The notes: generated from the letters alone by a model not told the origin. DNA of 64,000 bases from Gammaproteobacteria bacterium (GCA_024636785.1 JAGXGK010000003.1:72027-136026), one strand, 5' to 3'; positions 5,554 through 20,191 are shown, counted from the first letter of the stretch. A program made the numbers and translations.

Positions 5554-6285
5554 TTACTTCTTCTTAGCCGGAGCCAGATAGGACTTGATTGGAGAAGAGG
5601 CAATGTCGTTTCCAGCCTGCAGGCCGATATAAACGAGTGCGCGAGTCGGACTGGGGCCGAAACCCGGTGAGCGTGCAACTATATTTATTTTCAGCGGCCG
5701 GCGTCCCGCCATTATTTTTATTTCTTTCTGCTGTGTCGCCAGGCTGTCGGTAAAGGGCAGCTTGAGCACATCTTCCCCGCCTATGGAAATCTCAACGGCG
5801 ATCTCGACATTGCCCGCGCCGCCGACCTCGCGCGGTGGCGTAGGCTTAATGACCAGCTGATAGAGGCCGCTCTGCGTTATCATCAATTCGCCTTCGATGG
5901 AAACCGCCGCAACCGGGTAGCGCGAGGGATCGGAACGCTCATCAAAAAAACCGCTGTATCTGTATCCGTAGTCCTCGGGATTCAGTTTAATAACCGGCCC
6001 CAGTGTCATCCGGCCTTCCCGTAACGGGACTTCGGCATCCGACTCGAAATCTGAATTTTGTGACAGCCAGTAACGGCTGGAAACGGTAGCGACTGTTATT
6101 ATTTCCGGGCCGGCGGTAGCGGCTGCTTGCACGTCTTCAGACAACTGTGATTTATTAGCCAGCCCGGCATTTTTTTCCAGGCGTTCGATACGCTGTTTCA
6201 GCTGTTCGATGCTTTCCCATAACCGCTGATCATCCTGGGCCATAACAGATGTTGAGAACATCAGCAAAAGTACAATACGCAGCAT
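5554..6285 (-). CDS. Hypothetical secreted protein with an N-terminal coiled-coil, coupled to the response regulator
   Basis: Start MLRIVLLLMFSTSVMAQDD at 6285 shares one base with the upstream stop (TAATG). I do not recognise a family. Confidence 0.6.
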   Translation of the reverse strand: MLRIVLLLMFSTSVMAQDDQRLWESIEQLKQRIERLEKNAGLANKSQLSEDVQAAATAGPEIITVATVSSRYWLSQNSDFESDAEVPLREGRMTLGPVIKLNPEDYGYRYSGFFDERSDPSRYPVAAVSIEGELMITQSGLYQLVIKPTPPREVGGAGNVEIAVEISIGGEDVLKLPFTDSLATQQKEIKIMAGRRPLKINIVARSPGFGPSPTRALVYIGLQAGNDIASSPIKSYLAPAKKK

Positions 6286-7694
6286 TATCGCTCCTCGATT
6301 TTGTAACGTTTCATTTTGCGCCACAGCGTCGACTTATCAATGCCGAGGATTTCTGCTGCCAGGGTCCGGTCACTGCCCTGTTCGCGCAGTGTTTTACGAA
6401 TAAAGTAGGCTTCAATTTCTTCCAGACTTTGCGGCGCGACAAAATCCAGCGCGCGCAATTGCGAACCGTCATCTTCAGCCAGCTCAGCCGGTAACGCCTC
6501 TTCATTGACCCGATTACCCGTTGCCATGATGGTCATGCTCAGCACCACATTTTCCAGCTCACGCACATTCCCCGGCCAGTCATGCCGCATCAATACGCCC
6601 AGCACTTTGGTGGACATGCCATTCAGTGATTTACCCAGGCGGGTGGAGTGACGACTGAGAAAAAAGTTGGCCAGCAGGGGGATATCCTGACGACGCTCAC
6701 GCAGAGCAGGCAGTGCAATATCGATAACCTTCAGTCGGTAGAAAAGATCCTGACGAAACTCTTCGCTCTTTATCATTTCCGGCAGATTGCGGTTACTCGC
6801 GGTAATCACCCGCAAATCGACCTGCTGCGCTTCGGTATCACCAATTCGGTAGTAACTGCCGTCCTGCAAAACCCGCAACAGTTTGGCCTGCAATGAAAGC
6901 GAAGCGTTGTTGATTTCATCCAGAAACAGGGTGCCGCCATTGGCCTGTTCAAGCAGGCCCGCCTTGTTTCGGTCCGCACCGGTGAAAGCGCCTTTCATGT
7001 AACCGAACAGTTCACTCTCGATAATGTTTTCCGGAATAGCTGCACAGTTGACGGCAATAAAAGATTTATCACGGCGATCGCTGAGAGAATAAATGCGTCT
7101 GGCGACCAGCTCTTTGCCACAGCCACTCTCGCCGGAAATAAGCACATTGCAATCATAAGCGGCTGCGGCTTCTATCAGTTTTTCTACTTTCGCCATGGCC
7201 AGCGACTGGCCATACAGCAACCGATATTTTTCATATGATTCAACATTGTCGCGTGAACGTAGTTGCTCGTTTTCGGTGCTGAGCTGATAGTATGCCAGCG
7301 CACGCCCCACGGTATGCAACAGCTCATCATTATCAAAGGGTTTGCGAATATAGTCGAACGCACCTGCTTTTAAAGCTTTGACTGCCGACTCCACGGTGCC
7401 ATGTCCGGTCACCATCACTACCTGTGTGCGCGGATTGGCATGGCGTGCAAAATTGAGGATATCGATACCATCAACAAAAGGCATTTTCAGATCGGTCACC
7501 ACTACCGCAACCTCTGTACCGGACTCGATCAAATCCAGCGCATGCTGGGGACTGTCCGCCGCAATCACTTCGGCATCAAGTTTGCCGATAACAGTAGCGA
7601 CAAGCTCACGCATCCGGTCATCATCCTCGGCAATAATGATCCGTGGTAACTCATCGCGGCTCGTATCAATTACGGCTTTCACTGAGTTACTCAT
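6285..7694 (-). CDS. Sigma54-dependent response regulator (NtrC/Fis family: REC + AAA+ + HTH)
   Basis: Receiver domain (IIIAEDDD...TDLKMP), Walker A GESGCGKE, GAFTGA loop, C-terminal Fis-type HTH. Confidence 0.9.
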   Translation of the reverse strand: MSNSVKAVIDTSRDELPRIIIAEDDDRMRELVATVIGKLDAEVIAADSPQHALDLIESGTEVAVVVTDLKMPFVDGIDILNFARHANPRTQVVMVTGHGTVESAVKALKAGAFDYIRKPFDNDELLHTVGRALAYYQLSTENEQLRSRDNVESYEKYRLLYGQSLAMAKVEKLIEAAAAYDCNVLISGESGCGKELVARRIYSLSDRRDKSFIAVNCAAIPENIIESELFGYMKGAFTGADRNKAGLLEQANGGTLFLDEINNASLSLQAKLLRVLQDGSYYRIGDTEAQQVDLRVITASNRNLPEMIKSEEFRQDLFYRLKVIDIALPALRERRQDIPLLANFFLSRHSTRLGKSLNGMSTKVLGVLMRHDWPGNVRELENVVLSMTIMATGNRVNEEALPAELAEDDGSQLRALDFVAPQSLEEIEAYFIRKTLREQGSDRTLAAEILGIDKSTLWRKMKRYKIEER

Positions 7695-9109
7695 TAATTT
7701 TTTACTCCTCGTAATTTCATAATAAATCGAGCGCCTTCTTTGTAGGTGCTATCCAGATCAAGCGATGCACCGCGCCGTCGCAGCATGGCCTGACTGATGG
7801 ACAGGCCCAGGCCGGTGCCTTCTCCGGCTTCTTTAGAGGTAAAGAAAGGCTCGAAGATACGGCGACGATCCTCAGCAGGAATTCCCGGGCCATTATCTTC
7901 AACCGCAAGCTCTACCCCGCGTGCACCAACACTGCGGGTGGTGATGTGAATCACACCATCCTGCCGCTCCTCAAGTGCGTGCAGTGCATTGAGCAGCAGG
8001 TTGGACAGAGCAATGTCGAGCTCGCCGCAGGGCATCTCTACAGCGGGCAGATTATCATCCAGATTGAGATGAATTTTTGTCGACTGGCGCTTCAACATGC
8101 AGGAGAGAAAAGTATCGACCAGATCCTGGATCAGCACATTAACATCACACTCCTCATCGGTACAGCTATCGCGGCGGGCGTAGCTGAGCAGGTCGTTGAC
8201 AATACGTGAACAGCGCCGGGCTTCATCAGCAATAAAATGCGAGTAACGTAATTTTTTTTCTTCATCAACATCCTCGCTGTTAAACAGCTGTGAGTAGCCC
8301 AGGATATTTCCCAGCGGTGTATTCAACTCATGCGCAATACCAGCGGCCAGCTGTCCCATCGCTACCAGTTTTTCCCTGTTATAGACGGAGTCGAGCAGCT
8401 GCTGATAATCAGTGATGTCCTGCAACGTTATTACCGCATCGACTTCGGCTTCATCTTTAGAATAAAAAGCGATATTGATTGAGATATAACGCTCCGACTC
8501 AGCGACCATGGTATGAATAACGTAATTCTCCACCGGCTGCTTATAGAGAAAGGCATCGCGTAGAGTATCGCTGTCGTGCGGTTCCAGATTGAACACATCA
8601 AACAGCATCTCGCCCAGCAATAAATCAGACTCCCGCTTGAACAATTCGACCGCCTGAGGGTTGGTATTAACCACTATAAGATCATCATCCACCGCTAACA
8701 GGGCACCCGGCATACTGCCGAGCAGGGCATCCATCTTATTGCGTTCGGTCACCACCCGATTCTGACATTCCTCCACCATGGTGAACATGGTGCTGAGGTT
8801 TTTCATCATGGTGTTGTAGTCATGTACCAATTTTTGCGAGAGCGAATCTCCATAATTGATGTCGACCAGATGGGTGAGCGCACCTTCATGCGCATCGAGC
8901 ACGGCTTCGTGCATCAGCGCCATAGTTCTACGATGCAGATACAGCATTGCCATGGCAAGCAGCAGCAGGGCTTCCAGCAAAAGCAGGCCTACGCTTTGAT
9001 ATGTCCATGAAAAATCGTTTTGCTGGATAAAAAAGATGGCAGTTGCGCAGGGAGCTGCAACAGCCATCAACAGGAGTATTTTTAGAAGTGCGTCAAACAG
9101 ATAAACCAT
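7694..9109 (-). CDS. Sensor histidine kinase (2 TM segments, PAS-like domain, HisKA, HATPase)
   Basis: H-box [12 protein letters not shown], and N/G boxes ([22 protein letters not shown]). Its stop overlaps the regulator start at 7694. Confidence 0.9.
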
Positions 9110-9247: not shown

Positions 9248-10423
9248 TTAGAAAATCATCTGCAAGCCAAGTGTTGCCTGATCATAATCCTGCAGTGCCG
9301 CATTAGTCGGATGCTGATCATTGAACTCAATCGATGCAAACTCAGCGGTCACCTTCAGCTGCTGGCCATTGATGTAGTAATTGGCCCCTACCGAATTCGA
9401 GGTCAGGTCCGAAAGGCCGGTGTTAACGCCGTAATCGATCTCTTCTGATCTGGCAAATATCTGCAAACGACCGATACCCACCGGATTCGGCAACAGATAG
9501 CCCGCTTTCACATAAGCGCCTTCACGTTCAGCCCACGGCGACAAAGTCGGATCGGGACTAACCGGGTAGCCATCCAGGCTGTAATCAAAATAGGCGGCTG
9601 AAGCCGTGACGGTGCCGAACGCATAGGGATATTCAAAGAAGATATCGTAGGTTGTCGCCTTGTAATCTTTGACATCGGTTTTAGTCGCAAAATTGCCGTA
9701 AGCAACATCGGCCTGCGAGTCAACGGAGACACCCAGAGTCAGTACCTTCTGCGTACCCAGATAGGTGCCGCGATAACCGTAGGAATATTCAGGATCAAGC
9801 AGACTGACATGGGCGCGTGCGGTCACTCGTGGTGAAGATTTCACAACATTTTCACCCTCGCGTCCATCACTGACTGAAAGGCGGTACTGGAACATGGCAT
9901 CGTTCAGATTGCCCCACATGGTCACGCCGGTATCGCGGGTTCCGCCGTAGGGTGTATAGGGCAGATTCTCACCCCGATCCAGGGTCAGTGGCTCCAGACA
10001 CGCTTCCAGGTTTTCACGACTGAAGGTGTTTTTGTAACGCCCGATAATGAATCTGAAGGCATCACTGGAATCGATGGTTAAATAGGCATCGCGATAGTAA
10101 ACGGCGCGATTATCCTGTCCGCCCTTGCTATCATTACCCGCCTCGAGCTGGGCATAGAAACCAATATAGTCATTATACTGACCAAGAAAAGTTATACGGT
10201 TGCGACGTAAGAAGCTGTCATAGACATCACCGTCATCATTGGCCGAGGTATAGCCCCGCTTCTGCGTCCAGAATTGAGCCGCGTAAGTGATCTCCATATA
10301 GCCTTCATCACCCACCTGAAAACTGGGCCCGGCCAACACCGTCTGCTGTGCGCCGAAACCGGTGAGCGCTAATGCTACCGCAGCGCATAATGAACGTTTG
10401 TAATACTGACGATTATTTTTCAT
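9248..10423 (-). CDS. Outer-membrane porin-like beta-barrel (candidate ExtI-like partner of the adjacent cytochromes)
   Basis: Signal peptide ...TVLA-GP, amphipathic strands rich in Tyr/Gly throughout, terminal LGLQMIF. It starts 15 nt after the triheme gene ends. Confidence 0.7.
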   Translation of the reverse strand: MKNNRQYYKRSLCAAVALALTGFGAQQTVLAGPSFQVGDEGYMEITYAAQFWTQKRGYTSANDDGDVYDSFLRRNRITFLGQYNDYIGFYAQLEAGNDSKGGQDNRAVYYRDAYLTIDSSDAFRFIIGRYKNTFSRENLEACLEPLTLDRGENLPYTPYGGTRDTGVTMWGNLNDAMFQYRLSVSDGREGENVVKSSPRVTARAHVSLLDPEYSYGYRGTYLGTQKVLTLGVSVDSQADVAYGNFATKTDVKDYKATTYDIFFEYPYAFGTVTASAAYFDYSLDGYPVSPDPTLSPWAEREGAYVKAGYLLPNPVGIGRLQIFARSEEIDYGVNTGLSDLTSNSVGANYYINGQQLKVTAEFASIEFNDQHPTNAALQDYDQATLGLQMIF

Positions 10424-10437
10424 TGTTATCCCCTTTA

Positions 10438-10926
10438 TTAATCTTTCTGATATTTGTCGAGCAGTGTTTTCATGTCACCGTCGCTGTGGCAATCAGCACA
10501 GCTTTTCTGCGGCTCGGTTCTCGGATCGCCGATTAGATCTTTATGCGCCATTTTTTGAAGCATCAGCCGTTCGTTACCCTGATGGCAACCCACGCAGGAG
10601 TGATTTACTTTGTTATGCTGCTCATGCCAGTCTTTCGTCGATGGCGCTGCCGCGCGTTTGTCATTATGGCACTTATAACAGGATGACAAACCGAGTCCGC
10701 AGGCGTTGGCCACGGAGATCGGAGAAGCCGTCACAATGCCCTCATGCACACCGGCCAGAACATCACTGCCCCAGCTACCATCCTCAGCCACCGGCATGCC
10801 GTTATCGGCGACATAGCCCGCATAACCCGACCATACGATCGCCACCATGGGTATGACTAAAAGTGGCAAGCCGACTTTGCGCAGCCATTTTGCCCAACCC
10901 GTTGCATTATTTTTTATCTGTTTCAT
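10438..10926 (-). CDS. Triheme c-type cytochrome with an N-terminal membrane anchor
   Basis: Three CxxCH motifs (CYKCH, CVGCH, CADCH) and a hydrophobic N-terminal segment. Confidence 0.85.
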   Translation of the reverse strand: MKQIKNNATGWAKWLRKVGLPLLVIPMVAIVWSGYAGYVADNGMPVAEDGSWGSDVLAGVHEGIVTASPISVANACGLGLSSCYKCHNDKRAAAPSTKDWHEQHNKVNHSCVGCHQGNERLMLQKMAHKDLIGDPRTEPQKSCADCHSDGDMKTLLDKYQKD

Positions 10927-11189
10927 TCTTCCTCCGAGTCTCTGTTACGAGATGATTCTAATAATTGTGTATCTTGAGCAGCACCGTTCTCATTTGTGCC
11001 CTGCTCTAATTTTTTACTCGCCTGTATATCCTTTTCACTCAGCCCTCTGGCGCACATACAAACCGGCCCGCTCTTAAACTTTAACCTGGGCGATGAATTA
11101 TCCCTGCCCTTTTCATTTGCATAGAGGGGGCTGGTCATCAACAACATGCCCAATATGATCAAAATTTTCATAAACCCCCTCTCAGCCAA
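10923..11189 (-). CDS. Small secreted hypothetical protein (same position as ExtJ)
   Basis: MKILIILGMLLMTSPLYA signal peptide. Its stop overlaps the triheme start (ATGA, 10923-10926). The real start is probably ATG 11171. Confidence 0.55.
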   Translation of the reverse strand: MAERGFMKILIILGMLLMTSPLYANEKGRDNSSPRLKFKSGPVCMCARGLSEKDIQASKKLEQGTNENGAAQDTQLLESSRNRDSEEE

Positions 11190-11313: not shown

Positions 11314-12528
11314 TCAATTTGCAACGCCCGGCAATGCCCGCTCAGCAGCGATGAATTCATACTCGGTTGCGCGCGTCTCCGCAATGGCCTGCTGTAACAG
11401 ATCGAGTACCACCGGCTTCAGGCTCCTGCGGTTACTGGCCAGATAGGACTCGAAAGTGAGCCGATACTGCTGACGCGGCGCGACCTGAATACGCAGGCGG
11501 ATGCTCCCCGGTTGAACCATCCCATCATGGCGGCCGCTGAGCGTGCGCGTCCGGCCTGCGGCCAGTCGGGTATCAAAAAGCTCTTCGGTCAGCGCGAGAT
11601 TAGCCTTCCAGGCGATCACGTCCCGCGCCAGCCCGGTGACCTCGCCCGCTGCATTGACATATTCAAGATGCAGCACCACTTCCGGCACCATGTAGGTGGG
11701 GAAATCATGGCCGGCGCCGGTGTTGGTGACCGCTGCCGTGGCACCGACAATATTACCCTCCTCCTGCAACCAGGTGATCTCCACCGTCAGCGCCGAGGCG
11801 GTCATGGCCGGGTCATGAATTCCCCGCCACTGGTGCTTGCGTTCAGGCATGTGACAGCTCTGGCAGTGCCTGCCTTCATCGGCAAAGCGCGTGGCGCGCC
11901 ACTGGCTATAGGTATCCTCGCGCAACTTGCCGTTCAGCCTCGGCCCGTCTTCGGCAAACTGGTGACAGTTGGCGCAGAAGCGGCTGTCGGCAAAAGCATC
12001 GTGCTCGACAAAACCGCCATGCGCGCTTTCCGTCACCGGCACACGTGCTTTTGGCCCGAAACGGGTATGGGCGCGAACGTGACAGGCGGCGCAGACCAGC
12101 CCCTGCTGGTGCAGATCCGGTGGAATATATTCCGGCGGCGGCATAGTCAATTTAGACCAGCCGCGTTGCTGCGAGAGCAAGGCCAGCTGCTCGGTCATGG
12201 GGGCGTGACAGCGCAGACAGGATTGGGCCGTTTTCGGATCGGCAATTTGCAACTGCCAGAGTATGCCCGGCCCCATGGTGTGACTGTGCAAACTGCCGCG
12301 CCACTGCTGAAACTGTTCAGCATGGCAGCTGCCACAATCCGCCGGCGCCACCGAAGCCTCCAGCGCGGAAAACTCAGCAGGCGGCTGACCCTGCGCGGGA
12401 ATCGGGTAGGCCCAGTGCTGCTCGAGAAAATCATCCACCGCAACCGGCGCCTGCTCAGCCATAAACCACCAGCCCCCCGCGAGCACCGCCAGCAGCAGCG
12501 CGATAAATCCGACCCCTTTCAGCATCAC
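11314..12528 (-). CDS. Pentaheme c-type cytochrome (periplasmic)
   Basis: Five CxxCH motifs (CGSCH, CLRCH, CAACH, CANCH, CQSCH) and an N-terminal signal/anchor. Confidence 0.85.
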   Translation of the reverse strand: MMLKGVGFIALLLAVLAGGWWFMAEQAPVAVDDFLEQHWAYPIPAQGQPPAEFSALEASVAPADCGSCHAEQFQQWRGSLHSHTMGPGILWQLQIADPKTAQSCLRCHAPMTEQLALLSQQRGWSKLTMPPPEYIPPDLHQQGLVCAACHVRAHTRFGPKARVPVTESAHGGFVEHDAFADSRFCANCHQFAEDGPRLNGKLREDTYSQWRATRFADEGRHCQSCHMPERKHQWRGIHDPAMTASALTVEITWLQEEGNIVGATAAVTNTGAGHDFPTYMVPEVVLHLEYVNAAGEVTGLARDVIAWKANLALTEELFDTRLAAGRTRTLSGRHDGMVQPGSIRLRIQVAPRQQYRLTFESYLASNRRSLKPVVLDLLQQAIAETRATEYEFIAAERALPGVAN

Positions 12529-12618: not shown

Positions 12619-12650
12619 AAAAAAAAAGGCAGCCACCGAAGGGACTGCCC
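12619..12650 (-). terminator. Hairpin followed by a T9 run after the rhodanese lipoprotein gene (possible attenuating terminator)
   Basis: The ggcag...ctgcc stem has an A9 run on the plus strand, which reads as T9 on the minus strand just 3' of the stem. Confidence 0.5.
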
Positions 12651-12673: not shown

Positions 12674-14131
12674 TTAACCACCGCAGGGGTTGGCAGGTAA
12701 ACCACCGCCGGTTGTAGTACCGCCGGTTGATGTTGTACCTGTATCAACAACAATACCTTTATAGGCCAGATCTTCAACAATGATATTCTGAGCTGAACCT
12801 GCATAGGCATCAACAATAACACCGGAAGTAGTCGGTGGATCTACTGCTACGCTTTTCAGGAAGTAGTGACTGCGATCCACCGTATCTGTACGCCATGGGG
12901 AATTGACTGGCATCAGCAACTCACCATTACTGTCTTCTATCGCAGACAGTGAATGCCACTCGGTCATCGCACCATCATAGAAGCGGGTGGGCAGACCCAG
13001 AATCGCGGTTGAGGCAAAACCTGTCACCATGGCACGGTAGGTGGTTTCACAATAGGTATAAATAGTGTCACCGGACTGATAGGCGCTGCCATTACCCACT
13101 GGCTGCAGAGTAATATCAAGGAAGCCGTTGCCACCAACGTCTGTATCACCATCCACATAGGCCTGAAGTTCAGCCTTGGTTTTGTAGCTATAACCGTTCG
13201 CGGTATCAAGCAGGTTGCTAAAGTTCAGATCCAGCGCACCATTGGGATGTCCCTGAACAGGGCCAGTCTGAAAGTCACTATCGCCAGTCGGATAGTACTG
13301 ATTGCTACCGCGGGCATCCCAGATGAATACACCATCGTCCAGTATATTTATATCGGTTGTCGGAACGATATTCACCATGTCTTCCAGCGTGGCCTGCAGG
13401 GCAAAATTGATCGCCGGCAGATCTTTCACCGAGGCAGTTCCGGTTTCAGGCGCTATATCGGCAGTCGCTGACATAGAGAGCGAGTTAGGAACCCCTGCAT
13501 TCCACTCATTGCCTCCGTTCAGCACCGCAACCTGGCCTTTAAGCATGCCCCAGTAACGCAAGGTATACCAGCAACGGCCTGCTTGCATCGCCGCAAAATT
13601 GCCCGCTTTACCCTGTGCACAGACCACCATATCCTTGCTCGGATCGATATTGTATTTGGACAGGAAGGCGTCCATCATCTCACCGCTAGGTACCATGCTC
13701 TTGGTCTGCACCACGCCATTCGAGCGAAGCTCATTCACCATAGGCGCATCATAGGTAAATACACCTTGACTCGGATTAGAGGCTATATATTCATAAGTAG
13801 CAATATCACTACCCGCCTGCAGAATAATCAGTTTGCTATCGGGATCCAGACCGACCGGGCGGCTGGGTGTAACAGGATCGGACCAGTTTGTTACCCAGGT
13901 TTCCAGCGTGGCACCGGTAATCAGGCCATAGATGTTATCGTCATAGTTAGCGGCGGATGTTGTCGTCAATGACGCCGGGCTCGCCATCTCCGGCAAGGTT
14001 ACTGTCGATGAGGTATTCAACCCTATGCTGTCTTCTGTACCCGAACAACCGGCCAGAACTATCGTTGTGGCAGCTACAAGACCGACAAGGCCTCTTCTGC
14101 CGCGTTGCACTCTTATCATTTTATTCATCAC
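12674..14131 (-). CDS. Tandem rhodanese-like lipoprotein (ExtH-like) with a Thr/Gly-rich C-terminal tail ending PCGG
   Basis: Lipobox VLAGC. Two rhodanese-type active-site loops (VVCAQGKAGN, YTYCETTYRA). C-terminus ...TGTTSTGGTTTGGGLPANPCGG. Confidence 0.7.
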   Translation of the reverse strand: MMNKMIRVQRGRRGLVGLVAATTIVLAGCSGTEDSIGLNTSSTVTLPEMASPASLTTTSAANYDDNIYGLITGATLETWVTNWSDPVTPSRPVGLDPDSKLIILQAGSDIATYEYIASNPSQGVFTYDAPMVNELRSNGVVQTKSMVPSGEMMDAFLSKYNIDPSKDMVVCAQGKAGNFAAMQAGRCWYTLRYWGMLKGQVAVLNGGNEWNAGVPNSLSMSATADIAPETGTASVKDLPAINFALQATLEDMVNIVPTTDINILDDGVFIWDARGSNQYYPTGDSDFQTGPVQGHPNGALDLNFSNLLDTANGYSYKTKAELQAYVDGDTDVGGNGFLDITLQPVGNGSAYQSGDTIYTYCETTYRAMVTGFASTAILGLPTRFYDGAMTEWHSLSAIEDSNGELLMPVNSPWRTDTVDRSHYFLKSVAVDPPTTSGVIVDAYAGSAQNIIVEDLAYKGIVVDTGTTSTGGTTTGGGLPANPCGG

Positions 14132-14238: not shown

Positions 14239-14424
14239 TCAGGCTGATTTAATTACTATTGGAATCTCGTTATCATTCAAGTTATCCAACACTGCTGCTG
14301 CACCTGTTTCGACTGCGGTTTTTTCACATTTTCTGCCGAGTTCCTGCAGGCCTTTTTCAATCATCGACTGGAGCTGTGCATCACCCTCTCCCACGATGAA
14401 TAATCGAACGTTTTTTTCACTCAT
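14239..14424 (-). CDS. Small hypothetical protein (61 aa), third member of the mini DsrE/F/H-like set
   Basis: ATGA overlap with the upstream ORF (14421-14424). The size and position suggest a DsrH/TusB-like role, but the sequence alone is not diagnostic. Confidence 0.45.
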   Translation of the reverse strand: MSEKNVRLFIVGEGDAQLQSMIEKGLQELGRKCEKTAVETGAAAVLDNLNDNEIPIVIKSA

Positions 14425-14681
14425 ACCACGTACACCACGTCTGCGTTGACAATCATTTCCGCCAGCACCACCGGCGCGTTTTCATCGATATCGACCACCG
14501 GTACGTCGGCGAAATCGAGCGATTCGAGCTGCAATTCCACCTCGGCATCAGCACGATCAAGCTCGCCGACTACGGCGACCTGAATAACATCATCGAGCAG
14601 GGTCAAACCGGTGGCCATGCGCAGGGCTTCGGCTTTTTTGTGGCGTGCAATCATCAGCACATTTTTAATTTCATCACTCAT
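14421..14681 (-). CDS. Small DsrE/DsrF-fold-like hypothetical protein (86 aa, no cysteine)
   Basis: VLMIARHKKAEALRMATGLTLLDD is reminiscent of the DsrF/TusC N-terminal strand-helix. It is translationally coupled to its neighbours. Confidence 0.5.
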   Translation of the reverse strand: MSDEIKNVLMIARHKKAEALRMATGLTLLDDVIQVAVVGELDRADAEVELQLESLDFADVPVVDIDENAPVVLAEMIVNADVVYVV

Positions 14682-14690
14682 CGGTTACCC

Positions 14691-15005
14691 CTAAAAAACC
14701 AGCACTTTATCGCAATGACGAACCAGTTCAGCGTTCTGATACTGGCCACCCACAATCAGTACGTCTTCAAGCGCTTTCAGATCAACCTCAGGGCAGATTC
14801 GCTCGACTGAATGTTCACATACCGACAGGTGTACCCGCTGCTGGTCGGCGACGTTGATAAATTGCTCGTTCCGGATCAGGTTGACGCCGTTATCGGTGAG
14901 GAAACAACGAACATTCCAGTCTCTCGCCAGCGCTGCTTGCATGAGATCAGTCACATGCTGCGAGTGTTTTTCATCGGTGACTACCAGGCCAAAGTTCATA
15001 CTCAC
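14691..15005 (-). CDS. DsrE/DsrF-like family protein (104 aa)
   Basis: FGLVVTDEKHSQHVTDLMQAALA...VHLSVCEHS...VLVF resembles the DsrE/TusD fold, with a candidate active Cys. It overlaps the tusA-like stop by 4 nt. Confidence 0.6.
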   Translation of the reverse strand: MSMNFGLVVTDEKHSQHVTDLMQAALARDWNVRCFLTDNGVNLIRNEQFINVADQQRVHLSVCEHSVERICPEVDLKALEDVLIVGGQYQNAELVRHCDKVLVF

Positions 15006-15253
15006 CCCTTGCGGATTTTCCAGGTAGAAGAGCCGTCACTATCCTGACGATCAAACACTTCGTTGCCTTCGCTTTCGCACATCGACAGGATCGATTCACC
15101 CGATGAGGGGTTGTCGAACATCAGGGTCAGTTCATCGCCTTCGGAAAGTTTTTGCAGCGCTTTTTTGGTGTACATCTGGGGATGCGGACAGACGTAGCCG
15201 GAAACATCGAGCTGATAATGTCCGTCACTGATTTTGTCAAATTTGATTGCCAT
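15002..15253 (-). CDS. TusA/YeeD/YedF-family sulfurtransferase
   Basis: The CPxP motif (YVCPHPQMYTKKAL), its length, and its position directly downstream of yeeE. Start taken at MAIKFDK. Confidence 0.8.
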   Translation of the reverse strand: MAIKFDKISDGHYQLDVSGYVCPHPQMYTKKALQKLSEGDELTLMFDNPSSGESILSMCESEGNEVFDRQDSDGSSTWKIRKG

Positions 15254-15318
15254 ACACTTAATACCTCTATTCATTAATTACAAATTGTCTGTAATGCGCT
15301 GCACCTGGCAGGCATTGT

Positions 15319-16764
15319 TTAAATATTGAATTCGTCATCCTCGGTTCGCCATTCAATCCACATGTTGAATGCCTTCACACCCAGCAGACCACCCAGGGTC
15401 ATGCCCGCCAGGAATATCCAGCCGCTCAGGTCGCCGTTGGTGACGGCGGCGAAGAAGGCACCGACGTTACAGCCCATGCCGACGCGAGCGCCGATACCCA
15501 TGAGCGCGCCACCAACCAGGGCGAAGGTGGCGGTTTCAATGTTCGGGACTTTCCATTTGAATTCGCGACGCGTCAATGCCAGCACCGCAGCACCAAGAAT
15601 AATGCCGACTGACATCCACAGCGGTGCATTGACCAGCGGATTAGGCAGACCATTGATCAGGCCGAAGAAAATGTTGTCTCTGGTGTCTCTGCCCAGGCCT
15701 TCAAGTATCCAGCCACCGAGCTGTGCTTCCTGCGTGGTGATGTACCAGTAGCCGGGGTCGAAAACCGTCAGGTTCATCGACAGGCCATCGGTATGGCCCA
15801 TCTTTTCCAGAAGCGTACCAAAGTTGTCTATGTTGTAGTACTCACGCAAGGCACCGGTGACCCACATTTGCAGACCGGCGAACACACCCAGGCCGAGACC
15901 GGCGAGCGCGGTGTTTTTCGATGCCGTCATCATTGCCCAGAAGCCTCGCATTTCATCTTTCATGCCGGGTGAGGCGAGCTTGAGTCGGCGAACATAACCT
16001 TTGCGGTAGGTGGTGAGGTAAAGCACGATAAGCACGGCGATAGTCGGCAGAATGGCCCCCAGCAGTGCGTTACCGATAAATACATCAAACCAGACATTAC
16101 CAGTATCGAGCGACTGGGCGACGGTGCCGCCGGAAAGATCCCAGATGTAACCGGCATTGAACAGGTCGAACCAGCCATTGGTAGCTGAGAGCTCTTCCGG
16201 CATGCCTTTGTCTACGGCCGAAGCGACCCAGCTATCGGGCGCGAAGGCATTGGACCAGCTGCCCATATCGACAAACAGCGCCTGCGAAAATGAAATACTA
16301 ACTAGCACCAGCATCGAACTCATATTGCCTTCGCCGCTTTTATACAGCGAGCCGGAGGCGCAACCGCCGGCGAAGACCATACCAAAACCAAAGATCAGGC
16401 CGCCGAAAATAATATGCCAGCCCAGTGGATTGGCATGAAACGTACTATATCCGCCCACCGTCACCATCCCCGCGGTAATGGAAAACAGTGCCGTGGCGAT
16501 CATCACGCCCACCGCCATACGCGGCACCTTCACGGCAAACAGATCACGCACCGCCGAGGCCATGCAGAAACGTCCGTACTGCAACAGCACGCCGTAGGCG
16601 AGACCAAACCAGACATATACCAGCAGATAAATCCAGCGCGTGTCCATCGCCAGTACTACCACTGATAAAACCGCCACAGCAGCGATAATAAACATTGCTT
16701 TATAGCCACCTTCATGAGCAAACGTACTGGGGGTGCTCACTGCTTGCGTTGCATCTGTACTCAT
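15319..16764 (-). CDS. YeeE/YedE-family sulfur-compound (thiosulfate/selenium-associated) transporter, unusually long
   Basis: Duplicated half-motifs with conserved Cys (FAGGCASGSLYKSGEG; GMGCNVGAFF) and many TM segments. At 481 aa it is longer than the roughly 350 aa I recall as typical. Confidence 0.85.
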   Translation of the reverse strand: MSTDATQAVSTPSTFAHEGGYKAMFIIAAVAVLSVVVLAMDTRWIYLLVYVWFGLAYGVLLQYGRFCMASAVRDLFAVKVPRMAVGVMIATALFSITAGMVTVGGYSTFHANPLGWHIIFGGLIFGFGMVFAGGCASGSLYKSGEGNMSSMLVLVSISFSQALFVDMGSWSNAFAPDSWVASAVDKGMPEELSATNGWFDLFNAGYIWDLSGGTVAQSLDTGNVWFDVFIGNALLGAILPTIAVLIVLYLTTYRKGYVRRLKLASPGMKDEMRGFWAMMTASKNTALAGLGLGVFAGLQMWVTGALREYYNIDNFGTLLEKMGHTDGLSMNLTVFDPGYWYITTQEAQLGGWILEGLGRDTRDNIFFGLINGLPNPLVNAPLWMSVGIILGAAVLALTRREFKWKVPNIETATFALVGGALMGIGARVGMGCNVGAFFAAVTNGDLSGWIFLAGMTLGGLLGVKAFNMWIEWRTEDDEFNI

Positions 16765-16815
16765 ATTTTTCTCTTCTACTCTCTCGCTTCAATAAACGGT
16801 TTTAAAAACCGGCGG

Positions 16816-17202
16816 TTATTCTTCTCGACGCACATAAATGTGCCAGTTACCCTGCCTCTGTACCGTACCCAGATGCCTGCCTTCATAAATATCCATCATT
16901 GAAGGTATGGTTTCGACCACCGACAGATTGTCAGTAATCACCTCTATCACCACCCCCTTCGGATTGTCATTCAAAGCCTTTAGCGTCAGCAACTGAGGTC
17001 TCGGGCATCCTTCACCTTCACAGGCCACACGGCATCCCACCTCTATTATTCCGTGCCCCGGCAACTCGACCTGATCTGATACCTTCATACAGGCGCGATG
17101 CCGTTTTGCAGGAACCACATCCAGATTAAGGTGAAATAGATTTGATAAAAACATACGCATCTCTTTGAATCGTTGTTTTACATTATGCATCTTCCATGCC
17201 AT
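16816..17202 (-). CDS. TusA-family sulfurtransferase with an uncertain N-terminal extension
   Basis: GEGCPRPQLLTLKALNDNPKGVVIEVITDN... is the TusA CPxP core. The true start may be ATG 17088 (MKVSDQ). Confidence 0.65.
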   Translation of the reverse strand: MAWKMHNVKQRFKEMRMFLSNLFHLNLDVVPAKRHRACMKVSDQVELPGHGIIEVGCRVACEGEGCPRPQLLTLKALNDNPKGVVIEVITDNLSVVETIPSMMDIYEGRHLGTVQRQGNWHIYVRREE

Positions 17203-17820: not shown

Positions 17821-18228
17821 CTAACGAGCAGTACCAAAACTCTCATTTTCGGTATGGGTTGGAACAGACAATCCTGCAATACGCATCCCTTGTGCCACAG
17901 GGCCTTCTGGAAACAGCGTATGTAAATATTCACGACCGCCCTGCTCAGAAAATGCCTCATCAAGCATGTCGCCAAGTTCACGACCATTTTCAGCCTGGCC
18001 ATTATCCAGATAATAATCCTGCAACTTCTGTATTACTTTAAAATGCGCGTCGGTGAGCTCTAAGCCCTCTGCCGACGCGATTTCTCTGGCTCGATCCTCA
18101 TCCCAGGCCTGCAACTCCTGCTCACGCCCTGTGCGCTGCTGGCTCGCAATATCTGTATCGACACTTCTATCCATCATCTCAACAGCCTCAGCCTCGGGAG
18201 ATGTGGATTTTTTTTCATAATCAGTCAT
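17821..18228 (-). CDS. DsrC/TusE-like protein lacking both conserved cysteines
   Basis: ELTDAHFKVIQKLQDYY...YLHTLFPEGPVAQGMRIAGLSVPT matches the DsrC/TusE core. The protein has no Cys at all and ends PTHTENESFGTAR where PTGCV would be expected. Start at ATG 18228 follows AGAGGA. Confidence 0.75.
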   Translation of the reverse strand: MTDYEKKSTSPEAEAVEMMDRSVDTDIASQQRTGREQELQAWDEDRAREIASAEGLELTDAHFKVIQKLQDYYLDNGQAENGRELGDMLDEAFSEQGGREYLHTLFPEGPVAQGMRIAGLSVPTHTENESFGTAR

Positions 18229-18833
18229 AATATTTTTCCTCTTTTTAATTACTATTTTATAAAGATAACAGAAAACCTGCCTCATTAAAATTTTGATGCG
18301 CTGACACTTAAAAATCATCTAGAGATATATTAGGACCTTTTAACGTACCAACATTATAAATTTTACGTTCAGAATCTCGCCTTCATACTTAATAATATGG
18401 AAATTTTAACACTCCTCATGCAAGAGTAATAAATCACAATTTTGTGGTTGATTTTTAACAGCATTTATAATTCTTACTTATGCTGCACATTTTATATGGT
18501 AATAACACATTCATAAAAACAGAATGACAGTGGCTGACTGTTTTCTGATTTAGCCAGACAATGAACCATTCGCTGCCTGGCAGATAAAAGCAAAAGAAAT
18601 CTGATTAACAAAAAACGCTTTAACCGGTGATCGACTGCCGGCCAAAACAAAGCGGCGCTCAGCCTAAAAATGCAATTAATTTATTGTTTTTCAGAGGAAA
18701 AGTTAAGCGGTGAATCAAGTCGAGCCTGATCCCCTTCTGCCCCACATCCCCGTCATTCTGGCGCAGGCCGGAACTCAGATGCTTGACTGCGATATTTAGA
18801 ACTTATTAGCGTAATTAATTAAAAAATGGAACG

Positions 18834-18922: not shown

Positions 18923-20191
18923 TCATTCCAGTTTATTTATGCCCATCATTTTAAGAAGATAGCGTTCATACAAAGGTTCTGTATACCCCTTTCTCATCTT
19001 TCGAATAAAATATTTTTCAAATCCGATTTTCGCCTGGTGCACCCACTTACCTTTTTTGAACCAGGTCACATTGCGTGGCGGTATTTGTGGTAAAGCTACA
19101 AAAGCGGCACCGGTATCACCCATGTCGGCCAGACAGATAGCATTCCAGGTACCACAGGTTTCAGGTGCTTCGCCCGCGATTTCGTGCGCAATATTATGCA
19201 CAATAGCGGTTGCCATAGTTTCAATCATGTAACCTGTTTTGGGTGCGCCGGTGGGTACCGGTGTGGCTTCAACCGGTGGGATTGCCACGCAGACTCCCGC
19301 AGAATAAATATTCTTATATTTAGGATTACGCTGGTATTCATCGATCAGGACGAATCCACGTGGATTGCATAAGCCTTCAACTTCCGCAACGGCATCAACG
19401 CCTTTGAAGCCTGGCAACATCATTGAGTAATTAAATGGCAGTTCATGCTGTTTTTTAACGTTACCATCATCATCCAGTTCATCTACAAACATCATGCCAT
19501 CTTCAACTTTCGTTGTTTTTGCGTTGGTGATGAATTTTATATTATGGTTGCGTAGATCACTTTCCAGCATGCCTCTTGAATCACCCACACCAGCCAAACC
19601 CAGATGGCCGATATATGGCTCCGATGTGACGAAAGTCATCGGTACTTTATTGCGCATTTTCTTTTTGCGCAGAACACAATCAAGAATAAATGCAAACTCA
19701 TAAGCGGGACCAAAACAGCTGGCGAAAGGCATGGCGCCGATAATCACCGGGCCGGGGTTTTCGACCAGCCTGTTGAAATCATCTAATGCAGTGACCGCAT
19801 GTTCAGTGCTGCAAACAGATGAGGTGAAACCTTCGGGGCCGGAACCCGGAATCTCTTCAAAAGCGAGTCGGGGGCCGGTGGCAATGACGAGATAATCATA
19901 ACCGACTGCTTCGCCCTCTTTTAACTCCAGCCGGTTATTTTCAGCATCAATTTTAGTGACCCGATCCTGAATAAAATTGATGCCTTTTTTAGCCAGTATC
20001 GATGACAGCGGTACAGTAACATCTTTCTGGGTACGCCAGCCAACCGCGACCCATGGGTTCGAGGGCGTGAACTGGAAATGATCACGTTCATTAATAATGG
20101 TGATCTGGTGATCCTTACTCAGGGTTTCTCTCATTTCGTATGCACAGGGCAATCCCCCTACACCGGCTCCTACTATGATGATACGTGCCAT
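18923..20191 (-). CDS. sqr: Sulfide:quinone oxidoreductase
   Basis: Closely parallels the Acidithiobacillus-type SQR sequence from memory along its whole length: GAGxGG, FQFxPSNPWVxVGW, three conserved Cys including SCFGPAYE and GLCNP, and the C-terminal amphipathic helices. Confidence 0.9.
   Translation of the reverse strand: MARIIIVGAGVGGLPCAYEMRETLSKDHQITIINERDHFQFTPSNPWVAVGWRTQKDVTVPLSSILAKKGINFIQDRVTKIDAENNRLELKEGEAVGYDYLVIATGPRLAFEEIPGSGPEGFTSSVCSTEHAVTALDDFNRLVENPGPVIIGAMPFASCFGPAYEFAFILDCVLRKKKMRNKVPMTFVTSEPYIGHLGLAGVGDSRGMLESDLRNHNIKFITNAKTTKVEDGMMFVDELDDDGNVKKQHELPFNYSMMLPGFKGVDAVAEVEGLCNPRGFVLIDEYQRNPKYKNIYSAGVCVAIPPVEATPVPTGAPKTGYMIETMATAIVHNIAHEIAGEAPETCGTWNAICLADMGDTGAAFVALPQIPPRNVTWFKKGKWVHQAKIGFEKYFIRKMRKGYTEPLYERYLLKMMGINKLE

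What the first reader, a model, noticed from the sequence alone, without database searches (positions are those of the whole stretch)
12677..12739. The rhodanese lipoprotein ends in a flexible Thr/Gly linker and a terminal PCGG, resembling the SoxY GGCGG carrier arm
The last 21 residues read GTTSTGGTTTGGGLPANPCGG-stop. SoxY carries its sulfur intermediates covalently on the Cys of a C-terminal GGCGG swinging arm.

A penultimate-region Cys after a low-complexity linker, on a protein that already has two rhodanese loops, suggests a built-in substrate-carrying arm. It could hand persulfide or selenopersulfide between its own catalytic loops and the neighbouring cytochromes. I do not know of such a fusion being described.
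Basis: inference. Interest (0 to 1): 0.62.

Follow-up and report, generated by a model that had tools for sequence, protein, structure and literature searches.

The report
Conserved cysteine tail on ExtH-like rhodanese
An outer-membrane-anchored sulfur-transfer enzyme ends in a floppy linker with one invariant cysteine near its tip; this looks like an undescribed built-in sulfur-carrying arm that serves a neighbouring porin and haem-protein module.

Summary
ORF 12674..14131 (-) encodes a lipoprotein that ends ...GTTSTGGTTTGGGLPANPCGG, followed by TAA.

The tail is strongly conserved. In 118 close homologues the linker varies freely, but the end is L-P-x-N-P-C-G(G), with Asn and Cys in 118/118. 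All 79 complete genes from a metagenome scan also end in such a Cys.

More distant relatives carry analogous tails. These include bona fide Geobacter-type ExtH, which ends in a Gly-rich linker and ...GGC-COOH.

AlphaFold models a confident tandem-rhodanese body and a disordered tail.

The gene lies in a conserved module:
- A pentahaem cytochrome gene starts less than 700 nt downstream in 50/54 loci.
- An ExtI porin gene lies downstream in 45/45 loci.

In this sample, members that lost the rhodanese catalytic Cys still have the tail Cys, and all 29 tail-less members keep the catalytic Cys.

My best reading is a tethered thiol arm carrying sulfane sulfur, analogous to SoxY or DsrC. It is not a member of either family. 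Sulfur carriage is inferred, not shown.

I found no published description of this tail.

The parts
12674..14131 (-). ExtH-like tandem-rhodanese lipoprotein gene. It is 485 codons from the GTG; the database form is 484 aa, starting from the ATG at 14128. The lipobox LAGC has its Cys28 at 14045..14047.
   Evidence: ORF and translation. Pfam Rhodanese 26.5 bits. NCBIfam ExtH 116.8 bits, below the cut-off of 200. AlphaFold mean pLDDT 89.1 and pTM 0.85. Foldseek best matches are thiosulfate and 3-mercaptopyruvate sulfurtransferases, with TM about 0.7 on the target.
12677..12757 (-). C-terminal tail, residues 458-484. It is a Thr/Ser/Gly linker followed by the conserved end LPANPCGG. The tail Cys482 is at 12683..12685 and Asn480 at 12689..12691.
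   Evidence: Sequence. pLDDT is below 50 for 470-478 and 480-484, with block means of 66, 44 and 39 for the last three blocks. Motif counts in 118 homologues. Tail length after the D..YK motif has a median of 29 residues, range 19-67.
13049..13051 (-). Codon of Cys360, the catalytic-loop cysteine of the C-terminal rhodanese domain (YCETTYRAM).
   Evidence: Invariant in the 116-sequence alignment of close homologues and in 87/87 of alignment A3. It sits at the strand-to-helix junction E355-359 / H363-376 of the model.
13571..13621 (-). Cys170 (13619..13621) and Cys186 (13571..13573) in the N-terminal rhodanese domain. They form a co-varying pair and are probably a disulfide.
   Evidence: Both present in 102 homologues and both absent in 16, with no mixed cases.
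12627..12650 (-). Terminator-like hairpin with a T-run, 24 nt after the stop codon, between the rhodanese gene and the cytochrome gene.
   Evidence: Pattern scan. This is a consensus match only.
11314..12528 (-). Pentahaem c-type cytochrome with 5 CxxCH motifs, of the ExtKL/MccSep and T. tepidum c552 family. It has no Cys outside the haem motifs.
   Evidence: Pfam and NCBIfam hits. PDB sequence hits include 5ze8 (c552) and 9wt8 (MccSep). Cys census. The gene starts less than 700 nt after the tail stop in 50/54 loci.
10923..11189 (-). Small secreted protein (88 aa) with a conserved C-x-C motif (GPVCMCARGLSE). It is a possible thiol partner.
   Evidence: The homologues in L001, L003, L004 and L005 keep PRLKFK...C.C...LSE.DI. 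No family hit.
10438..10926 (-). Small trihaem c-type cytochrome.
   Evidence: Pfam Cytochrome_C7. 3 CxxCH motifs in the homologues, and conserved synteny.
9248..10423 (-). ExtI-type outer-membrane porin.
   Evidence: NCBIfam porin_ExtI 353.6 bits against a cut-off of 150. Found downstream of the rhodanese gene in 45/45 loci with enough sequence.
14421..17202 (-). Upstream sulfur-relay genes: an 86-aa ORF, a DsrE-like protein, TusA, a YedE/TsuA-like transporter and a second TusA.
   Evidence: Pfam and NCBIfam hits. The same order is found in L001-L005. The 86-aa ORF or the DsrE-like gene was detected in 52 of the 57 loci that have at least 1.5 kb of upstream sequence.
6285..9109 (-). Histidine kinase and sigma-54 response regulator that close the conserved cluster.
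   Evidence: ORFs. Synteny in L001, L004 and L005.

Best explanation
The tail is a tethered thiol arm. It consists of a disordered linker of about 25 residues ending in a recognition peptide, LPxNPCG(G)-COOH. Its single Cys is proposed to carry sulfane sulfur as a persulfide or polysulfide, or a selenium adduct in ExtH proper.

The rhodanese body is anchored to the outer membrane by its lipid, next to the ExtI anion porin. Incoming thiosulfate or polysulfide would load the catalytic Cys360. The sulfur would pass to the tail Cys, or the tail Cys would react directly. The arm would then dock its conserved tip into a partner. The most likely partner is the adjacent pentahaem cytochrome; the small CxC protein is another candidate.

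Shown here: the tail exists, its tip is invariant, it is predicted to be disordered, it is tightly syntenic with the cytochrome and the porin, and it persists when the catalytic Cys is lost.

Inferred: covalent sulfur carriage, the identity of the partner, the direction of transfer (oxidative in these sulfur oxidisers, reductive in Geobacter), and which face of the outer membrane the protein occupies.
For: - Conservation of the tip against a freely varying linker: N and C in 118/118, P in 106/118, and 79/79 metagenome genes.
- Analogous tails in distant branches. The ...GGC-COOH proteins score 280-345 bits on the ExtH equivalog model, above its cut-off of 200. Other classes end in NPCL, NPCIL and NACD.
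- The tail is disordered in a confident model (pLDDT 89 overall, below 50 at the tip). The body is a tandem rhodanese.
- The tail is never shorter than 16-19 residues after the last helix.
- Synteny: the pentahaem cytochrome lies less than 700 nt downstream in 50/54 loci and ExtI lies downstream in 45/45. In Leptospira loci, the paired paralog that carries the tail is the one directly followed by the cytochrome.
- Tail-less relatives in L006, L076, L079 and L083 have no such neighbours.
- About 18 members have lost the catalytic Cys360 yet keep the tail Cys, while 29/29 tail-less members keep Cys360. So every member in this sample keeps at least one of the two thiols, and the tail thiol can stand alone.
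- The partner cytochrome of this clade has no Cys outside its 5 CxxCH motifs. It therefore lacks the Cys239 and Sec325 that its relative MccSep needs for polysulfide chemistry (PMC13510729).
- Precedent from established knowledge: SoxY carries its intermediates on a Cys in a swinging arm (PMC5336275). DsrC and thioredoxin reductase also use C-terminal Cys/Sec arms (my own knowledge).
Against: - There is no biochemical evidence of any adduct.
- There is no expression evidence; the one metatranscriptome had no matching contig.
- The exact tail end differs between branches (CGG, CG, GGC, CIL), so there is no single recognition motif as in SoxY.
- One divergent tail-bearing member (L082) has no cytochrome or porin nearby.
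- One tail-less member (L080) sits beside a porin and trihaem cluster.
- The ext cluster in L085 has ExtH with a tail but no ExtKL.
- A terminator-like hairpin separates the rhodanese gene from the cytochrome gene.
- The association counts are not phylogenetically independent.
Confidence: 0.5

Rival explanations
1. The tail Cys is a resolving or regulatory cysteine. It folds back and forms a disulfide or trisulfide with the catalytic Cys360 of the same molecule. This would protect or switch off the rhodanese, or regenerate it, without carrying sulfur to any partner.
For: The linker of 25 or more residues is long enough to reach any point on a tandem-rhodanese body (inference). Both cysteines are invariant in the close clade.
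Against: About 18 family members lack Cys360 yet keep the tail Cys. A simple resolving Cys would not need an invariant 6-8 residue motif around it. It would also not need strict synteny with the cytochrome and porin.
Confidence: 0.12
2. The tail tip is a docking or anchoring peptide. Its Cys makes a stable link to a partner and does not turn over as a carrier. The link could be an intermolecular disulfide with the CxC protein, the porin or another subunit, or an axial ligand to a haem of the cysteine-free pentahaem cytochrome.
For: The conserved LPxNPCG(G) looks like a recognition peptide. A CxC protein is conserved in the cluster. The cytochrome has no Cys of its own where MccSep has a haem-ligating Cys. 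Judging only by the title of a paper cited in PMC13510729, ExtI influences the localisation of ExtH in Geobacter; I could not read that paper.
Against: A purely structural tether rarely needs a long low-complexity spacer of such variable length (19-67 residues). Tails also occur where no cytochrome or CxC protein is nearby (L082).
Confidence: 0.15
3. The tail is a chalcogen or soft-metal binding thiol, acting as a tethered glutathione-like Cys-Gly end. It would capture selenite, tellurite, Hg or Cu at the envelope for detoxification, rather than serve sulfur energy metabolism.
For: The Geobacter ext cluster is linked to selenite and tellurite reduction (PMC5877670). The ends Cys-Gly-COOH and Cys-Gly-Gly-COOH resemble the Cys-Gly end of glutathione (my own analogy).
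Against: In this window the neighbours are sulfur-relay and sulfide-oxidation genes: TusA, DsrE-like, YedE/TsuA-like, an SQR-like flavoprotein and DsrC-like. A single thiol is a weak metal site.
Confidence: 0.08
4. The tail is a sorting or processing signal, or low-complexity drift without function.
For: Many bacterial C-terminal signals contain Gly or Cys (my own knowledge).
Against: The protein ends 2 residues after the Cys. There is no hydrophobic helix or basic cluster, as the tripartite CTERM signals have. The invariance of N and C over 118 sequences and 79 further genes excludes drift.
Confidence: 0.03

Closest known systems
SoxY, the carrier subunit of SoxYZ in the Sox thiosulfate-oxidation pathway
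   Same: Both have a single Cys near the C-terminus on a flexible peptide, followed by Gly-Gly-COOH. SoxY carries its intermediates covalently on that Cys (PMC5336275). Both are envelope proteins of sulfur oxidisers, and both would work with c-type cytochrome partners.
   Different: SoxY is a small Ig-like protein paired with SoxZ, and its motif is GGCGG. Here the body is a 460-residue tandem-rhodanese lipoprotein. The motif is LPxNPCG(G), the linker is 19-67 residues long, and no SoxY domain or SoxZ was found among the scanned neighbours.
ExtH of the Geobacter extHIJKL(MNOPQS) cluster (NCBIfam NF040901)
   Same: Both are homologous tandem-rhodanese lipoproteins, encoded with an ExtI porin and a pentahaem cytochrome of the ExtKL family. 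Proteins that pass the ExtH model also have a Gly-rich tail with a terminal Cys.
   Different: The window protein scores 116.8 bits against the cut-off of 200. Its tail ends NPCGG instead of GGC. The gene order differs. Its cytochrome lacks the Cys and Sec active-site residues of ExtKL/MccSep. The cluster is joined to TusA, DsrE and YedE genes, and the named relatives are sulfur-oxidiser lineages such as Thiobacillus, Thiohalomonas and Thiotrichaceae.
Tandem-domain rhodaneses: thiosulfate and 3-mercaptopyruvate sulfurtransferases, e.g. A. vinelandii RhdA 1e0c and bovine TST 1rhd
   Same: The fold matches, and a catalytic Cys sits in the C-terminal domain loop.
   Different: The matched solved structures (229-431 residues) are much shorter than this 484-residue protein. 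To my knowledge (not checked here) they are soluble and carry neither a lipid anchor nor a C-terminal Cys arm.
DsrC and TusE, and thioredoxin reductase (from my own knowledge, not tested here)
   Same: They have flexible C-terminal arms with a redox-active Cys or Sec near the terminus. The arm shuttles sulfur or electrons between an enzyme's active site and a partner.
   Different: The folds and motifs are unrelated, these proteins are cytoplasmic, and their arms have two redox residues (Cys-x10-Cys, or Gly-Cys-Sec-Gly).

Membership tests
SoxY carrier protein | SoxY domain (Ig-like fold) | tested here: not met
   Pfam finds only Rhodanese. The model is a tandem rhodanese.
SoxY carrier protein | C-terminal GGCGG motif | tested here: not met
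   The end is LPANPCGG. Only Cys-Gly-Gly-COOH is shared, and the two residues before the Cys are N-P in nearly all homologues.
SoxY carrier protein | Partner SoxZ and Sox enzymes encoded alongside | tested here: not met
   None among the 20 proteins I scanned around the gene. The rest of the genome is not available.
SoxY carrier protein | Covalent sulfur adducts on the arm Cys | not testable with these tools
   This needs mass spectrometry of the protein.
ExtH (NCBIfam NF040901 equivalog) | Score at or above the curated cut-off of 200 bits | tested here: not met
   116.8 bits. Proteins ending in GGC score 280-345 bits.
ExtH (NCBIfam NF040901 equivalog) | Lipoprotein signal peptide | tested here: met
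   The lipobox LAGC follows a basic and hydrophobic N-terminus. The Cys28 column is 99% Cys in the 116-sequence alignment and invariant in the A1-A3 alignments.
ExtH (NCBIfam NF040901 equivalog) | Encoded with the ExtI porin | tested here: met
   ExtI scores 353.6 bits against a cut-off of 150. Synteny holds in 45/45 loci.
ExtH (NCBIfam NF040901 equivalog) | Encoded with the ExtKL/MccSep selenoprotein (His/Cys haem plus Sec) | tested here: not met
   The neighbouring pentahaem cytochrome is only distantly similar (33 bits against a cut-off of 250). It has no Cys or Sec outside its CxxCH motifs.
Tandem rhodanese sulfurtransferase | Two rhodanese-fold domains | tested here: met
   Foldseek probability 1.0 to TST and MST structures, with TM 0.65-0.75 on the target.
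Tandem rhodanese sulfurtransferase | Catalytic Cys in the C-terminal domain loop | tested here: met
   Cys360 in YCETTYRAM is invariant in the clade. It aligns with the active-site region of E. coli SseA 1urh.
Tandem rhodanese sulfurtransferase | Sulfurtransferase activity | not testable with these tools
   This needs an enzyme assay.

The most novel reading that the evidence does not exclude
The tail Cys may act in trans as the missing active-site thiol of the cysteine-free pentahaem cytochrome. The arm would insert its LPxNPCGG tip into the cytochrome's substrate channel, so that a protein-bound persulfide is oxidised or reduced at a haem. This would be a SoxY/SoxAX-like or MccSep-like reaction split over two proteins.

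A further variant is that the slim Gly/Ser linker reaches through or alongside the ExtI porin. A surface-exposed rhodanese could then pass sulfur from insoluble extracellular sulfur to the periplasm.
Probability: 0.15. Interest if true: 0.85.

Novelty: new variant of a known kind. Interest (0 to 1): 0.62.

Why it matters
How bacteria move sulfur between insoluble or anionic sulfur outside the cell and the redox enzymes of the periplasm is still open.

The 2026 MccSep paper states this directly. [quoted passage not shown]

ExtH sits in that same gene cluster, and its function is not established in any paper I could read.

A conserved Cys arm gives a concrete handle that can be mutated and followed by mass spectrometry. 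This applies both to ExtH in Geobacter and to this widespread clade in sulfur oxidisers. Relatives come from Thiobacillus, Thiohalomonas, Thiodiazotropha, Thiotrichaceae and Leptospira.

If the arm does carry sulfur, it would be a third, independently evolved class of protein-bound sulfur carrier arm, after SoxY and DsrC. It would be fused directly to the enzyme that loads it.

Tried and rejected
1. Selenocysteine after the tail. Homologues ending in PCG, and the TGA-TAA stop of a GGC-type ExtH, raised this possibility. I rejected it. L001 ends PCG-TAA. GGC-type genes use TGA or TAA, with non-conserved extensions. In 74 clade genes the stops are TGA 58, TAA 13 and TAG 3, with unrelated sequence after TGA; the TGA bias fits genomes of 58-72% GC.

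2. The tail as a substitute for the Sec/Cys of the cytochrome. If so, the tail should be present only where the cytochrome lacks them. This is not supported as a rule, because proteins that pass the ExtH model also carry a tail, and ExtH proper belongs to the cluster that encodes MccSep.

3. The first genome-collection scan failed on a too-diverse alignment. The second was swamped by generic rhodaneses, and only L002-L008 were relevant.

4. Sigma-54 promoter search. There were fewer matches than in shuffled sequence and none upstream of the gene. No sigma-70-like site was found either.

5. Transcript evidence. The only metatranscriptome from the same study had no matching contig.

6. The BBRC 2019 paper on ExtH localisation is not held in the library.

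7. CTERM-type sorting signals were considered and rejected, because no sequence follows the motif.

8. Literature on purple sulfur bacteria growing on pyrite, and on cable bacteria, was checked for this rhodanese. Neither mentions it.

Full report
**Observation**

The ORF at 12674..14131 on the minus strand encodes 485 residues from a GTG; the database form has 484, from the next ATG. It has a basic and hydrophobic N-terminus and a lipobox LAGC. It ends ...GIVVDTGTTSTGGTTTGGGLPANPCGG, followed by TAA. The finding's coordinates are the last 21 codons. A public cold-spring metagenome run holds an identical contig across 9000..17300 at about 50x depth, so the sequence is not an assembly accident.

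**What the protein is**

- Pfam sees one weak rhodanese domain.
- NCBIfam's best match is the ExtH equivalog model at 116.8 bits, below its cut-off of 200. I therefore call it ExtH-like.
- An AlphaFold model built on 87 homologues is confident (mean pLDDT 89.1, pTM 0.85) from about residue 45 to 460. It falls to 66, 44 and 39 in the last three ten-residue blocks.
- Foldseek places the body among tandem-domain thiosulfate and 3-mercaptopyruvate sulfurtransferases.
- The catalytic-loop Cys of the C-terminal domain, Cys360 in YCETTYRAM, is invariant.
- The N-terminal domain also has a Cys at the loop position, Cys170. This Cys is present together with Cys186 in 102 homologues, and both are absent in the other 16, with no mixed case. 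That is the signature of a disulfide pair, not of a second active site.

**Conservation of the tail**

- Among the 120 best database homologues (47-88% identity), the linker changes freely in sequence and length, while the end stays fixed.
- Right-aligned on the Cys, 118 sequences give L(87) P(106) x N(118) P(106) C(118) G. A second G follows in 101 and the stop follows in 16.
- A metagenome scan returned 80 further loci at 41-76% identity. All 79 complete genes end with a Cys in the last five residues.
- The stop is real. All three stop codons occur, and nothing conserved follows TGA.

**The wider family**

An exhaustive search of 1.84 billion representatives found 276 relatives. Their C-termini fall into classes:

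- N-[PA]-C-G(-G), which also occurs in Leptospira-like proteins.
- A Gly-rich linker ending in ...GGC-COOH.
- A Pro/Ala-rich linker ending in NPCL, NPCIL, NACD and similar.
- A few ending in PGY, with an internal Cys just upstream.
- About 30 with no tail, ending right after a conserved D..YK motif.

The five GGC-type proteins I tested score 280-345 bits on the ExtH model, so they are ExtH proper. One of their loci is a full ext cluster with ExtI, ExtJ, ExtM and ExtN. A C-terminal Cys tail is therefore a feature of ExtH at large, not only of this clade. I found no paper that mentions it.

**A cross-tabulation that bears on mechanism**

In an alignment of all full-length members, 29 of 29 tail-less proteins keep the catalytic Cys360. 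About 18 proteins have replaced Cys360, often by Asp or Gly, and all of these keep a C-terminal Cys tail.

Every member in this sample therefore keeps at least one of the two thiols, and the tail thiol can be the only one. This argues against the tail Cys being merely a resolving partner of Cys360. The counts are not phylogenetically independent.

**Genomic context**

The window has a conserved order, read along the minus strand:

- TusA, a YedE/TsuA-like transporter, TusA, a DsrE-like protein and an 86-aa ORF.
- The rhodanese gene.
- A pentahaem cytochrome.
- An 88-aa secreted protein with a conserved CxC motif.
- A trihaem cytochrome.
- The ExtI porin (353.6 bits against a cut-off of 150).
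- A histidine kinase and a sigma-54 regulator.

This order recurs in Thiobacillus, Burkholderiaceae, other Betaproteobacteria and an unnamed metagenome contig; the short Thiotrichaceae contig covers only the part up to the rhodanese gene.

In the metagenome sample, the pentahaem gene starts within 700 nt of the tail stop in 50 of 54 loci. ExtI follows in 45 of 45.

In two Leptospira loci there is a tail-less paralog and a tailed paralog. The tailed one is directly followed by the pentahaem cytochrome.

Tail-less relatives in four other loci have no cytochrome or porin nearby.

There are exceptions:

- A divergent tailed protein has no such neighbours (L082).
- A tail-less one lies beside a porin and trihaem cluster (L080).
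- A terminator-like hairpin lies between the rhodanese and cytochrome genes in the window.

**The partner cytochrome**

It belongs to the pentahaem family of ExtKL/MccSep and T. tepidum c552 (PMC11976967). MccSep was shown in 2026 to be a polysulfide reductase. Its active site combines a haem-ligating Cys239 and Sec325 (PMC13510729).

In the HMMER alignment, the window protein has Arg-Glu where MccSep has Cys-Cys, and FPTYMVP where MccSep has IPDGUP. None of seven cytochromes of this clade has any conserved Cys outside the five CxxCH motifs.

If this cytochrome does sulfur chemistry, the thiol must come from elsewhere. The conserved thiols of the module are Cys360 and the tail Cys of the rhodanese, and the CxC of the small protein.

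**Most likely mechanism**

I read the tail as a tethered thiol arm that carries sulfane sulfur between the rhodanese active site, or the substrate directly, and a partner. The partner is most probably the pentahaem cytochrome. The conserved LPxNPCG(G) would be the docking peptide and the Gly/Ser/Thr stretch the spacer.

This is what SoxY does with its arm (PMC5336275). DsrC and thioredoxin reductase do something similar in other contexts (my own knowledge). Only the anatomy, the conservation and the synteny are shown here. The chemistry is inferred. I put this reading at about 0.5.

The rivals are a regulatory intramolecular disulfide, a stable tether or haem ligand, chalcogen or metal capture, and a sorting signal or no function.

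**Comparison with known systems and novelty**

The protein may work like SoxY, but it fails every sequence-level membership test for SoxY. It is related to ExtH but is below the equivalog threshold, and it has a different partner cytochrome. It is a tandem rhodanese by fold.

I know of no description of a rhodanese fused to a C-terminal Cys arm, and I found none. I therefore rate it a new variant of a known kind.

It matters because the MccSep authors explicitly leave open how sulfur reaches the periplasmic enzyme, and because the function of ExtH is not established in any paper I could read.

**Verdict**

- Interest is 0.62.

The most novel reading still open is that the tail supplies the cytochrome's missing active-site thiol in trans, or reaches through or along the porin. 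I give that a probability of about 0.15.

Noticed in passing
window 10923..11189 (-): This 88-aa secreted protein has a conserved PRLKFK...C-x-C...LSE.DI motif and always lies between the pentahaem and trihaem cytochrome genes. It matches no family in Pfam or NCBIfam. It could be a thiol partner of the tail.
   Followed up: partly
window 11314..12528 (-): The pentahaem cytochrome of the ExtKL/MccSep/c552 family has no Cys outside its five CxxCH motifs, so it lacks both catalytic residues of MccSep. In some relatives (L003, L004, L081) a Cys in the N-terminal signal region looks like a lipobox, so those cytochromes may be lipoproteins.
   Followed up: partly
window 13571..13621 (-): Cys170 and Cys186 of the N-terminal rhodanese domain co-vary perfectly: both are present in 102 homologues and both absent in 16. 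This suggests a disulfide rather than a second catalytic loop.
   Followed up: yes
L085 8709..9020: In a bona fide ext cluster, the ExtJ protein (54.7 bits against a cut-off of 52.5) also ends in ...MQGC-COOH. In L084, the small ORF after a PGY-type ExtH ends in ...DCCC. C-terminal cysteines may be a theme of the whole module. These are single examples only.
   Followed up: no
proteins P0172, P0191, P0205, P0187-P0194, P0204, P0211, P0214: A set of family members has replaced the rhodanese catalytic Cys, often by Asp or Gly, but keeps the C-terminal Cys tail. No tail-less member has lost the catalytic Cys.
   Followed up: yes
L008 6923..11332 and L081 7902..12217 (Leptospira): Leptospira genomes carry a tail-less and a tailed (NACGG) paralog close together, 1.4 kb apart in both loci. 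The pentahaem cytochrome directly follows the tailed one.
   Followed up: partly
L084 36..7032: A type II secretion gene cluster lies immediately upstream of a PGY-type ExtH-like gene and its ExtI porin. This may hint that this lipoprotein is exported to the cell surface. The ExtI ORF there is interrupted by an in-frame TAG.
   Followed up: no
window 17821..18318 (-): This DsrC-family protein (76 bits) ends in ...ENESFGTAR and has no cysteine anywhere in the reading frame. It therefore lacks the C-terminal arm cysteines of functional DsrC. It sits between the TusA/YedE genes and an SQR-like flavoprotein gene (18923..20191).
   Followed up: no
window 12627..12650 (-): A terminator-like hairpin with a T-run lies 24 nt after the rhodanese stop codon and upstream of the cytochrome gene. 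This suggests that the two tightly syntenic genes may not be simply co-transcribed.
   Followed up: no
proteins P0065, P0094, P0101, P0104: In these homologues the sequence after the second rhodanese domain differs from that of the other homologues, and only 71-73% of the query is covered. They still end in ...GGASLPANPCGG.
   Followed up: no
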